Source of the DNA: Myxococcota bacterium
Lineage (GTDB): Bacteria > Myxococcota_A > UBA9160 > UBA6930
Assembly: GCA_965223415.1 (NCBI GenBank)
Contig: OZ245002.1
Coordinates: 1,984,001-2,048,000, forward strand
DNA: 64,000 bases
Direction of reading: 5' to 3'
This document shows, one piece after another, positions 36,401 through 38,990 of this stretch (within the stretch, counting starts at the first letter, position 1; the number at the start of each line of letters is the position of its first letter). A program made the position numbers.

Positions 36401-38990
36401 CCCGCCGTGGCTCGAGAACTCGGCCTCGAAGAGCTCGGTGGCCAGCGTCGACCGCTGCTCCGCGACCTCGGGGAGAGAGGGCTCCGCGGCGGGCGGGGGC
36501 GTAGGAGCCGGTCGAGGTGCAGGCTCGCTCGCGGTGGTCGACGCCGCCGGCGCGGACGTCGGCTCACCGGCAGCGAGCGGCTCCTCGGAGGGAGCCGGCT
36601 CTTCGGCCGCGGCCGGGTTCTCCTCGAGATACCGTTGCCTTTTCCCCTCGGTATACATCGTCCAGCTGACGATCACCGCGAAGGACAAGGTCATGGCGAG
36701 GAGGAAGTTACGATCCATGACGCCTGTCCCCCGCGTGCGGCACCGGATCGAAGCCACCGGCGTGGAAGGGATGGCAGCGGGTGATCCTCCGCAACGCGAG
36801 CCAGCACCCGCGAGCGGGACCGTGCTCTTCGAGGGCCGCGATGGCGTACTCGGAGCAGCTCGGTGCGAATCGGCAGCTACCTCCGAGGTGCGGCGAGAGG
36901 ACGACCTGGTAGACGCGCACGGTGAGCTGCAGGGCGTGCGTCACGAGGCGCGTCATCCGGTGAGCTCCGTCAGCTCGTCCGCGATCTCGGCGGCGCTCCG
37001 ATCGGCAGCGCCGCGCCGCGCGATCACGACCAGGTCTTCCCCTTCGGGGAATCCATCGTGGCCCCGCCGGAACCACTCGCGCACCCGACGCTTCACGTGG
37101 TTGCGAGCGACGGCGTTGCCCACCTTGCGACTCACCGCGAGGCCCATGCGCGTCCGCGGCGCCTCGTAGCCCGACGCCCGGACCACCACGAAGTGGCGTC
37201 CCGCATGTCGCCGGCCCACGCGCTGCACGCGACGGAAATCCTTCGCGCTGCGCAGCCGGGAATCCCGGCGGAGGCGCTGGGAGCCCTCTCTGTGCCTGGA
37301 GAGGTCATCGGGCATCGCTGTCCACGGGGAGGAGGGACCGTGGCCGCGGGTCCTGCCTACTTCGACGGGACGCTGACGGCGAGCCGCTTCCGGCCCTTGG
37401 CCCGGCGTCGCTTGATCACCGCCCGGCCGCTCTTGGTCTTCATCCGAGCACGAAAGCCATGGGAACGGAGGCGGCGAATGCGGCTCGGCTGATAGGTTCG
37501 CTTCATGATCCAGGCTCTTGCTCGAGCTGATCCTGGGTAGGGCCCACAAGGGGCGGAGAGCGCGGGATCCTACCCCTCGCCTCCGAGGAGCGCAATGGAA
37601 TCCGAAGGAGTCCCGAGGTGCCTGTTTCCGTCGGTCGGACCGCCGGACGGAGTGGTATGATTCCCCCGCCGGTCACCGGAGGGGGTGAGACGACATTCGC
37701 GCGGTTCGACCCGCGCGGGCCGACACAGCGAGAAGTGCGGAGTTTCGGAGTACTTCGGTCCGCTTTGTCGGTTTGTCGCACCCTCTCTCCTTCATCATCC
37801 TTCTTTCTAGAACGAAAGAAGAATCAGAGAAGAGGCGAGATGCAATGAAGCTCGTGATCGAGAAGGGCGATCTGCAGCGGGGTCTGGGTCGTCTGCAGGC
37901 GATCGTGGAGAAGCGCAACTCGATGCCCATCCTGGCGAACGTGCTCCTCACGGCGTCGGGCAAGGGAGCCGACGCGAGTCTCGAGCTCGCCGCGACCGAT
38001 CTCGAGGTGGGCATCCGTGGTGCGCAGAAGGCCGACGTCTCGAAAGAAGGTGCACTCACCGTCTCTGCCCGCAAGCTTTACGACATCGTCCGCGAGCTCC
38101 CGGACGAGCCCGTCCAGCTCCAGTCGACGGACAACAGCTACCTCGAGATCCGTTGCGGTCGCTCGCGATTCTCCCTCGCGGGCGCGGATGCGGACGAGTA
38201 TCCGAGCCTTCCCGAATTCTCGCCGGGACAGCTCGTACGTCTCCAGGCGGCGGTTCTGAGCCAAATGATCGAGCGGACGATGTATGCCGCTTCCGTCGAC
38301 GAGACCCGGTACAACCTGAACGGCGTCTACTTCGAGGTGCTGCCCGAAGACGAGAAGATTCGCATGGTCGCGACCGACGGCCACCGTCTCGCGATGGTCG
38401 ATCGTGTGATCGGGAGCGACGCGAGCGGCCTTGCGAGTGGCCTCATCATTCCGCGAAAGGGGCTCGCGGAGCTCAAACGGCTCGTGGACGAGGAAGATGC
38501 GGACGAGATCGAGATCGGCTTCGAAGGCAACAGCGGACTCGCCCGCAAGGGAGACGTGACCCTCGTGATGCGACTGATCGAGGGGGAGTTCCCGAACTAC
38601 CGACAGGTCGTGCCCGAAGACATCCAGCGCCCGTTCACCCTCGCCGCGGAGCCGCTCACCCGCGCGTTGCGGCGTGTCGCACTGCTCTCGGCCGAGCGCA
38701 GCCGGGCGATCAAGCTCGATCTCGGCGAGGGGGCGCTGGTCATCTCATCGAGCAATCCGGATCTCGGCGAGGCTTCGGAAGAGCTCGACTTCGACTACTC
38801 GGGCGAACCGGTCTCGGTCGGCTTCAACGCCCGCTATCTGCTCGACGCCCTCGGAGCGCTGGGCGCGAAGGAGATCACGCTGGGCCTCCGCGACGGGAAT
38901 ACGGCCGCGGAGCTGCGCCCCACCGACGACACCGACAGCGTCGCGGTGGTGATGCCCATGAGGCTCTAGGAATCGGTCTCAACCCCCTGA

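What a model noticed while it worked through the whole genome (the two positions that open the first line are those of the whole stretch)
37507..37844. Replication origin without dnaA beside it, with a new TTTGTCG box, and a single displaced DnaA with altered motifs
oriC is the 338-bp rpmH-dnaN gap, from which dnaA has been lost in the whole order. The only DnaA (g02655, 2832880-2834292) is a displaced, divergent paralogue with Walker B 'ED', the arginine finger changed to Glu and the box-reading helix DHTTV changed to DLPAV. The origin carries TTTGTCG boxes in the position where the sister order has TTATCCACA-like boxes, just before a trio-like repeat and an AT-rich stretch.
Evidence so far: Codon-position TA skew has its minimum near 2.01 Mb and maximum near 4.79 Mb. 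No match to the canonical box within 2 mismatches lies in the gap. The tandem TTTGTCGGTTTGTCG is unique in the genome, at 2021764. rpmH directly precedes dnaN in 16 of 16 order genomes, whereas 14 of 14 sister-order genomes keep a degenerate dnaA there. TTTGTC lies within 250 bp of dnaN in 14 of 16 order genomes and 0 of 14 sister genomes. All class DnaAs score only about 320-375 bits on TIGR00362 (ours 323, cut-off 344; call 29) and the 30 best lie beside a LON-domain gene or cofH, not dnaN. The finger Arg is replaced in 7 of 11 order sequences, ours included.
(Added by a program. Inside this text positions count along the whole contig: contig position 1,984,001 is position 1 of the stretch shown here. 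"Call 12" and the like, gene names such as g00115 and contig names such as C1 are that model's own, and its searches are not shown. The text may have been shortened before it was handed on; [...] marks where a part breaks off. The agent that wrote the report below was given it as the finding of a first reader that could run no searches.)

Follow-up and report, generated by a model that had tools for sequence, protein, structure and literature searches.

The report
Recoded replication origin and finger-less DnaA
In a whole order of uncultured myxobacterial relatives, the chromosome's replication origin keeps the standard layout but carries a new initiator-binding sequence, and the only initiator protein has matching changes in its DNA-reading helix and usually lacks an arginine thought essential.

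Summary
Confirmed and extended. The 338-bp rpmH-dnaN gap is very probably oriC (TA skew, gene strand, parS, dif, KOPS). It keeps the ancestral Myxococcota layout in register: inverted distal box, IHF-type site, tandem boxes (period 8), trios, AT-rich stretch. Only the box differs: TTTTGTCG in the order, TTTTCCAC/G in the sister order and outgroups. The distal box and IHF site are new here. No dnaA lay beside dnaN in any of 100 order loci; 179 of 193 genomes have exactly one domain-IV gene. That DnaA keeps R399 (110/110) but has T435P (96/110) and H439N (97/110); one family has H439 (12/12) and its own box TTnTCGAC (12/12). The arginine finger is replaced in 87/110. Corrections: DLPAV and finger-Glu are local variants; one sister genome also lost origin dnaA; sister genomes hold two DnaAs with complementary losses. 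Best reading (0.65): the displaced DnaA reads the recoded box. Binding is inferred; no boxes lie upstream of dnaA. No earlier scan note on this was found.

The parts
37357..37506 (-). rpmH (L34), divergent from the origin
   Evidence: TIGR01030 81 bits, cut-off 38
37507..37844 (.). rpmH-dnaN gap: promoter region plus origin module; dnaA ORF absent
   Evidence: length fits the sister rpmH-dnaA spacer (179-270 bp in 17 of 18) plus dnaA-dnaN spacer (177-202 bp); no Rfam match
37721..37728 (-). distal inverted box (reads CTGTGTCG on minus), 42 bp centre to centre from the proximal box
   Evidence: GACA at -45..-36 in 53 of 85 order loci, control windows 0-17; sister counterpart in 23 of 29
37730..37756 (+). 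IHF-type site (A-tract, then C-N7-TT core at 37744-37756); degenerate in this genome
   Evidence: C(-16) 71/86 and T(-8) 72/86 with box-only anchoring; best IHF-consensus offset, 4.77 of 9 against 2.53+-0.47; profile finds typical IHF sites genome-wide but this copy is not in its top 200
37763..37770 (+). proximal recoded box (CTTTGTCG; order consensus TTTTGTCG)
   Evidence: 81 of 86 order loci within 1 mismatch of TTYYGTCS; same register as sister TTTTCCAG
37771..37778 (+). second tandem box, period 8
   Evidence: poorly kept across the order (11 of 83 at +8, 7 at +12)
37791..37805 (+). DnaA-trio-like run, five NTN triplets (imperfect here)
   Evidence: read from sequence; 3 or more NTN in 62 of 86 order loci against 9-10 in control windows
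37796..37835 (.). AT-rich unwinding stretch
   Evidence: best 40-bp window 26/40 A+T, reached by 0.018% of genome windows
37845..38969 (+). dnaN
   Evidence: TIGR00663 317 bits
32602..34036 (.). three parS-like palindromes (32602, 33980, 34023) beside parA/parB
   Evidence: 3 of 4 genome hits to a recalled parS pattern; ParB by TIGR00180

Best explanation
The gap is the chromosomal origin, a basal unwinding module of the B. subtilis kind with an IHF-bent spacer. dnaA was duplicated in the ancestor of the class; the origin-linked copy decayed in its AAA+ domain and was then deleted in this order. The remaining copy, 811 kb from the origin in this genome, is the initiator. Its basic-loop arginine still reads the T-rich half of the box, while its recognition helix (P423 lost, T435P, H439N; E. 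coli numbering) reads GTCG instead of CCAC. DnaA bound at the distal inverted box is folded by IHF onto the proximal box and trios, oligomerises on the trio strand and opens the AT-rich stretch. Because the finger arginine is usually Gln, His or Glu, the oligomer probably no longer depends on sensing the neighbour's ATP through that residue. Shown: layout, register, gene content, residues. Inferred: origin activity (about 0.93), binding of this DnaA to this box (about 0.7), IHF binding (about 0.8), finger-independent oligomer (about 0.6).
For: Origin: TA skew min 2.00 Mb, gene-strand min 2.01 Mb, dif-like site at 4.823 Mb, GGGGAGGG/GGGCAGGG the two most polarised octamers, parS cluster 4-5 kb away, circular junction; a profile from other genomes finds this site alone (37.6 against 15.5 next). 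Register: box at 0, C-16/T-8, trios near +21 in order, sister and outgroup Myxococcota. Reciprocal enrichment upstream of the proximal box: order profile 69 hits against 21.7+-2.5 shuffled in order gaps and 2 against 1.9 in sister gaps; sister profile 31 against 2.0 in sister gaps and 21 against 18.9 in order gaps. One domain-IV gene in 179 of 193 order genomes; 3 have two, explained as contaminant contigs, a small phage-like gene and a transposase. R399 110/110, H434 108/110, P435 96/110, N439 97/110; P435 0/30 in sister displaced copies and 0/30 in other Myxococcota. Reviews state that helix 434-451 reads the 3' part and R399 the 5' part of the box (PMC5742627) and that 435 and 438-439 are the likely specificity positions (PMC5043019). 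T. maritima DnaA, which has its own box, also has Pro at 435 and Asp at 439. Family f12: H439 in 12 of 12 and box TTnTCGAC in 12 of 12. Tree: origin and displaced copies form one class clade (0.999), displaced copies of both orders orthologous (0.998). IHF beta confirmed, IHF alpha-like by eye.
Against: No binding or replication data. No boxes upstream of the displaced dnaA (25 hits against 39 shuffled, 89 loci) and no intergenic enrichment of the box over AT-matched heptamers (0.35 against 0.28-0.41), so nothing outside the origin ties protein to motif. The covariation rests on two or three clade-level events; 25 positions differ consistently between the two orders' displaced copies, only 2 of them in the recognition helix. 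G017 has H439 with the ordinary order box, and 14 of 110 lack P435 while sampled ones keep the box. T435M abolishes box binding in E. coli, so T435P could mean weaker rather than new specificity. Finger mutants are inactive in B. subtilis, H. pylori, S. elongatus, D. radiodurans (PMC8287927), and B. subtilis-essential R321 is Gln in 110/110, N187 and I190 are variable. GC skew does not switch here. Long-branch attraction could produce the class clade.
Confidence: 0.65

Rival explanations
1. The motif is the site of a different, order-specific protein (a regulator like Spo0A at B. subtilis oriC, or a loader) that took over the box positions; DnaA is recruited by it or reads only the trios, and its altered helix has lost specificity.
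For: The core resembles the Spo0A box TGTCGAA that overlaps origin boxes (PMC13643167). No autoregulatory boxes at dnaA. Pro at a base-contact position may be a loss. Finger loss fits a rewired initiator.
Against: No Spo0A_C in this genome; no Rep3 or Cdc6 in 5 of 5 near-complete genomes (the RepA_C search had no positive control). Motif not enriched in intergenic DNA as a regulon site would be. It sits at both proximal and distal box positions and no CCAC boxes remain. Domain IV stays strongly conserved with new fixed residues. A family-wide search for order-specific genes was not possible.
Confidence: 0.2
2. The box is not recoded at three bases but slid by 2 bp: its core TTGTC[G/C] is the first six bases of an ordinary TTGTCCAC-type box that lost its 3' end, so this is a degenerate normal box.
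For: TTGTCCAC-type boxes occur at outgroup origins (L304, L308, L309); position 7 is C in about a third of loci; f12 TTnTCGAC and TTCTATCG variants share a TT.TCG core at different offsets.
Against: Trio phase is 0 in 37, +1 in 33 and +2 in only 16 of 86; IHF spacing and the G(-1), variable position 2 and G/C position 7 match the sister register unshifted. The two 5' T positions are among the best conserved.
Confidence: 0.1
3. Replication here no longer depends on DnaA; the motif is a relic or a dnaN promoter or structural element.
For: Finger, R321 and part of the ssDNA-binding motif are changed; GC skew is weak and discordant; DnaA-independent bacteria are known (PMC8287927).
Against: DnaA domain IV found in 100 of 101 high-quality order genomes; trios, IHF site and distal box are kept; E183, K/R222, E228, R206, sensor II largely kept; the same paper expects trios to be lost where DnaA is not used.
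Confidence: 0.05

Closest known systems
Bacillus subtilis incC basal unwinding system (boxes 6/7, trios, distal box; PMC6669920, PMC8287927, PMC10721633)
   Same: Tandem boxes, short GC spacer, trios, AT-rich stretch directly before dnaN; a distal box at about four helical turns (42 bp here, at least 44 bp there).
   Different: Box sequence TTTTGTCG; dnaA not adjacent; IHF-type site in the spacer; initiator usually lacks R264, always lacks R321, both essential in B. subtilis.
Thermotoga maritima oriC and DnaA (species-specific box; PMC10316083, PMC6669920)
   Same: Own box sequence with a changed recognition helix (Pro at 435, non-His at 439); proximal box, nucleoid-protein spacer, inverted next box.
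   Different: Unrelated box sequence; T. maritima keeps and needs the finger arginine; here close relatives with the ancestral box exist, so the switch can be mapped.
E. coli oriC left half (R1, IHF site, R5M; PMC5742627)
   Same: IHF site next to the unwinding-proximal box; origin away from dnaA.
   Different: Different box, only two to three boxes, clear trios, finger replaced; no Hda-like hit found.
Sister order and other Myxococcota origins (this work)
   Same: Identical spacing of IHF-type site, tandem box and trios.
   Different: CCAC boxes; other classes have one canonical DnaA (finger Arg 30/30); the sister order has two DnaAs with complementary losses.

Membership tests
Bacterial oriC | Lies at the strand-asymmetry switch opposite the terminus | tested here: met
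   TA4 and gene-strand minima 2.00-2.01 Mb, dif-like site 4.82 Mb, KOPS polarity; GC skew discordant
Bacterial oriC | Initiates replication in vivo | not testable with these tools
   no marker-frequency or genetic data
Basal unwinding system (BUS) | At least three NAN trios within 16 bp of a box | tested here: met
   62 of 86 order loci have 3 or more triplets in +16..+45; here five triplets start 12 bp after box 2
Basal unwinding system (BUS) | DnaA box within 2 mismatches of TTATCCACA | tested here: not met
   none within 3 mismatches in this gap; the definition allows a species-specific box instead
Basal unwinding system (BUS) | DnaA-dependent strand separation needing box and trios | not testable with these tools
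   needs purified protein
DnaA (TIGR00362) | Domains I, III and IV over the full model; score above cut-off | tested here: inconclusive
   full-length match 1-436 of 437 but 323 bits against 343.9; 88 of 225 class genomes pass
DnaA (TIGR00362) | Arginine finger | tested here: not met
   Glu here; Arg in 23 of 110 order sequences, 30/30 sister displaced, 30/30 other Myxococcota
DnaA (TIGR00362) | Walker A, Walker B, sensor II, box VII Arg | tested here: met
   Lys 90/90, acidic pair (Glu-Asp 105/110), sensor II Arg 102/110, box VII Arg 103/110
DnaA (TIGR00362) | Canonical box-reading residues R399, P423, D433, H434, T435, H439 | tested here: not met
   only R399 and D433 kept here; order consensus keeps R399, H434, mostly D433 (residue list PMC7561715)
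IHF binding site | WATCAAnnnnTTR core with upstream A-tract | tested here: inconclusive
   best offset across the order and profile retrieves typical sites genome-wide, but this genome's copy is weak and the sister signal ties with other offsets; the A-tract rule is recalled
Spo0A box / plasmid-type initiator site | Cognate protein encoded | tested here: not met
   no Spo0A_C, Rep3 or Cdc6; RepA_C search uninformative

The most novel reading that the evidence does not exclude
The class split DnaA into a box-binding, ATPase-dead origin copy and a filament-forming displaced copy; this order then dropped the first and runs replication with a single initiator that reads a recoded box through a two-residue helix switch and opens the origin without an arginine finger, i.e. 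without the ATP-sensing switch taken as universal for DnaA.
Probability: 0.4. Interest if true: 0.82.

Novelty: new variant of a known kind. Interest (0 to 1): 0.66.

Why it matters
Few DnaA boxes depart from TTATCCACA in the 3' half; T. maritima is the standard case. Here three box states (CCAC, GTCG, CGAC) sit in an unchanged origin scaffold beside matching helix states in close relatives, which turns the DnaA recognition code into a direct point-mutant experiment. A sole, universally kept DnaA lacking the finger arginine in most of about 190 species contradicts mutant data from six tested species and would show another way to build the unwinding oligomer. Origin finders using the standard box would miss this order.

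Tried and rejected
Second hidden DnaA in this genome: profiles of the sister origin copy (whole, domain IV, N-terminus) over six frames found only the known gene. Autoregulatory boxes upstream of displaced dnaA: none in either order. Regulon-like intergenic enrichment of the box: none over matched heptamers. f12 as a basal intermediate between CCAC and GTCG: it is nested in both DnaA and DnaN trees, with weak deep support, so read as a later shift. Canonical dnaA in order genome G097: on 2.6- and 3.0-kb contigs, with a DnaN 49% identical against 67% for the class-type origin, which has the new box; taken as contamination. Second inverted TTTGTC pair at contig 4,746,182: a long hairpin between genes. 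RNA or sigma-70 promoter in the gap: no Rfam match, no consensus hit. Spo0A, Rep3, Cdc6: not found. Literature: no paper on this box or lineage in searches with terms UBA9160+dnaA, TTTGTCG+oriC+DnaA (listing only), Myxococcota+DnaA+origin+duplication, two-DnaA/finger terms; subscription papers and the DoriC/BUS supplementary tables were not seen and could list some of these origins. No structure or complex prediction was run: the alignment to 8BTG is gap-free at the residues concerned.

Full report
Observation. The window lies at 1,984,001-2,048,000 of a single 5.83-Mb, 71% GC contig whose ends join in one reading frame. rpmH (37357-37506, minus) and dnaN (37845-38969) are separated by 338 bp; gyrB and gyrA follow dnaN, and rnpA, yidD, yidC, parA and parB follow rpmH (names other than rpmH, dnaN and parB are by eye). 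The tandem TTTGTCGGTTTGTCG is unique. The one DnaA lies 811 kb away beside a cofH/mqnC-like gene. Close relatives of that protein are titled Myxococcota or Deltaproteobacteria MAGs; the class name UBA9160 is my recall and comes from no call.

Is it the origin? Fourfold-site TA skew has its minimum at 2.00 Mb and maximum at 4.77 Mb, gene-strand bias its minimum at 2.01 Mb, a dif-like site lies at 4.823 Mb, the two most polarised octamers are GGGGAGGG and GGGCAGGG, and 3 of 4 parS-like hits lie 4-5 kb from the gap; GC skew does not agree (minimum 0.81 Mb) (parS, dif and KOPS patterns recalled; gene calls are my own crude ones). An 80-bp profile trained without this genome scores this site 37.6 and the next best 15.5.

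Gene content. The class holds 225 genomes: 193 in the order, 32 in the sister order. I examined 100 order dnaN loci of the 172 genomes with a dnaN hit: rpmH was upstream with no dnaA in 96, and 4 ended at a contig edge; one (G101) has an unrelated gene inserted. In the sister order 28 of 29 genomes have a degenerate dnaA 177-202 bp before dnaN; G212 (73% complete) has a 411-bp rpmH-dnaN gap with CCAC boxes and a single DnaA whose helix reads DHTSVMHA. Domain IV was found in 182 of 193 order genomes, once in 179. Of 315 sampled genomes from other classes of the phylum, 306 had a TIGR00362 match at E<=1e-40 and 9 none; the 30 best, which I aligned, are canonical.

Anatomy. Anchored on the proximal box, order (89 loci) and sister (29 loci) line up without gaps: box at 0-7, second box at +8, trios from about +21, start codon mostly 60-90 bp on. 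Leaving out 3 loci of family f12, 81 of 86 order boxes are within one mismatch of TTYYGTCS; the sister reads TTTTCCAG/C. Two elements are new. First, an inverted distal box: GACA at -45..-36 in 53 of 85 order loci (controls 0-17), and GTGGA-like at about -39 in 23 of 29 sister loci. In B. subtilis a distal box at 44 bp or more is essential (PMC6669920, passages). Second, an IHF-type site between them: with anchoring on the box alone, C(-16) is in 71 and T(-8) in 72 of 86, and -19 is the best offset for the E. coli consensus (4.77 of 9; mean 2.53, sd 0.47); in the sister it only ties (3.62) (consensus from PMC5742627, passages). A profile of this spacer retrieves typical IHF sites genome-wide (50th score 18.1 against 13.0-14.2 for 6 column-shuffled profiles; 149 of 200 intergenic against 47-112), though this genome's own origin copy is not in the top 200. 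In 20 outgroup dnaA-dnaN spacers none had the new box in the last 170 bp, and in the 14 that could be anchored the IHF consensus again peaked at -19/-20 before CCAC boxes. So the scaffold is ancestral and only the box changed. Further copies are enriched reciprocally: order profile 69 hits against 21.7 shuffled in 83 order gaps, 2 against 1.9 in 28 sister gaps; sister profile 21 against 18.9 and 31 against 2.0. Related genomes are not independent, so these are descriptive counts.

The protein. Residues were mapped through the alignment to B. subtilis DnaA 8BTG. In 110 order sequences (of about 183 genomes with a hit; 28 are from one genus): R399 110, H434 108, position 435 Pro 96, position 439 Asn 97 and His 13, finger Gln 67, Arg 23, His 9, Glu 3, sensor II Arg 102, box VII Arg 103, Walker B Glu 105, R321 Gln 110. 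The 30 sister displaced copies keep the finger (30) and read DH[TS]SV[MI]YA; the 27 full sister origin copies keep P423, T435, T436 and H439 but mostly lack finger, sensor II, F218, H231 and L269. A FastTree tree of 108 sequences joins origin and displaced copies in one class clade (0.999) and makes the displaced copies of both orders orthologous (0.998); long branches are a caveat. Reviews place R399 on the 5' TTA and helix 434-451 on the 3' TnCACA, report T435M as binding-defective (PMC5742627), and name 435 and 438-439 as likely specificity positions (PMC5043019, passages; PMC7561715, passages); the primary structure paper was not read. The unchanged half of the box thus faces the unchanged residue and the changed half the changed helix. 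T. maritima, with its own box, shows Pro and Asp at the same two positions. Within the order, family f12 has His439 in 12 of 12 DnaAs and TTnTCGAC in 12 of 12 origins (11 genomes shared between the sets), a box seen in none of the other 86; it is one nested clade, hence one event.

Against. Nothing outside the origin links protein and motif: the 400 bp before dnaA hold fewer boxes than shuffles (25 against 39 in 89 order loci; the sister is likewise flat, 11 against 11), and the motif is no more intergenic than matched heptamers. Twenty-five positions differ consistently between the two orders' displaced copies, so the helix changes are not singled out by statistics alone. G017 pairs His439 with the common box. 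Finger substitutions inactivate DnaA of B. subtilis, H. pylori, S. elongatus, D. radiodurans (PMC8287927, parts 2-4 of 5 read) and impair T. maritima (PMC10316083, passages), although the three Gram-negative proteins work with ADP, which shows that gamma-phosphate sensing can be dispensable. The core resembles the Spo0A box (PMC13643167, passages), but no Spo0A, Rep3 or Cdc6 gene was found.

Mechanism and verdict. Most likely the displaced DnaA binds the distal and proximal boxes, IHF bends the spacer, and DnaA polymerises on the trio strand using the retained E183, K/R222, E228 and K202 (PMC10721633, passages; counts), with DciA available for helicase loading. In the sister order the origin copy may be an anchor or a blocker; G212 suggests it is dispensable. 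It works like a BUS origin but fails the standard box and finger tests, so I file it as a new variant. I found nothing in print in the searches, nor this motif in PMC10225481 (passages); supplementary tables of predicted origins were not opened. Earlier scan notes gave no match.

Noticed in passing
L270 (G212:C52), 411 bp before dnaN: A sister-order genome that independently lacks origin dnaA, keeps CCAC boxes with extra copies, and whose only detected DnaA has His at 439 instead of the sister's Tyr.
   Followed up: partly
L133-L162 (sister origin dnaA): Origin-linked DnaA with intact Walker A and box-reading helix (HHTTALH) but no finger or sensor II: a possible DnaA-box-binding regulator or anchor.
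   Followed up: partly
L186-L213 (genus g69): DnaA has a variable 10-50 residue insertion after Walker A; origins of this genus place the second box at +12 instead of +8.
   Followed up: no
L011:6881-8290, DnaA residue 54: A domain I Trp conserved elsewhere is Arg in 84 of 85 order sequences.
   Followed up: no
window 38980-39006 (minus): A strong IHF-type site between dnaN and gyrB; no recF-sized ORF lies there.
   Followed up: no
contig 4,735,572 and 5,002,617 (L268, L269): Only two HU/IHF-family genes, IHF beta and an IHF alpha-like one; no HU detected.
   Followed up: partly
upstream of displaced dnaA (L104-L254) and of sister origin dnaA (L271-L288): Conserved promoter-like motifs by eye: TTGC...GGTCTACT-type in the order, TTGCATTGCTGCGC...TGATA in the sister.
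   Followed up: no
L395 (G174:C171): Small stand-alone DnaA domain-IV gene with a canonical DHTTV helix beside a LexA-like HTH gene, probably phage.
   Followed up: no
contig 4,746,180-4,746,245: Long near-perfect inverted repeat between two genes, about 77 kb from the dif-like site.
   Followed up: no
L001-L008 and genome-wide: Many near-identical IS21-type helper ATPase copies (17 weak PF00308 hits) that may have blurred GC skew.
   Followed up: no
L289 (G101:C62): A membrane-protein-like gene is inserted between rpmH and the origin module, giving a 1954-bp gap.
   Followed up: no
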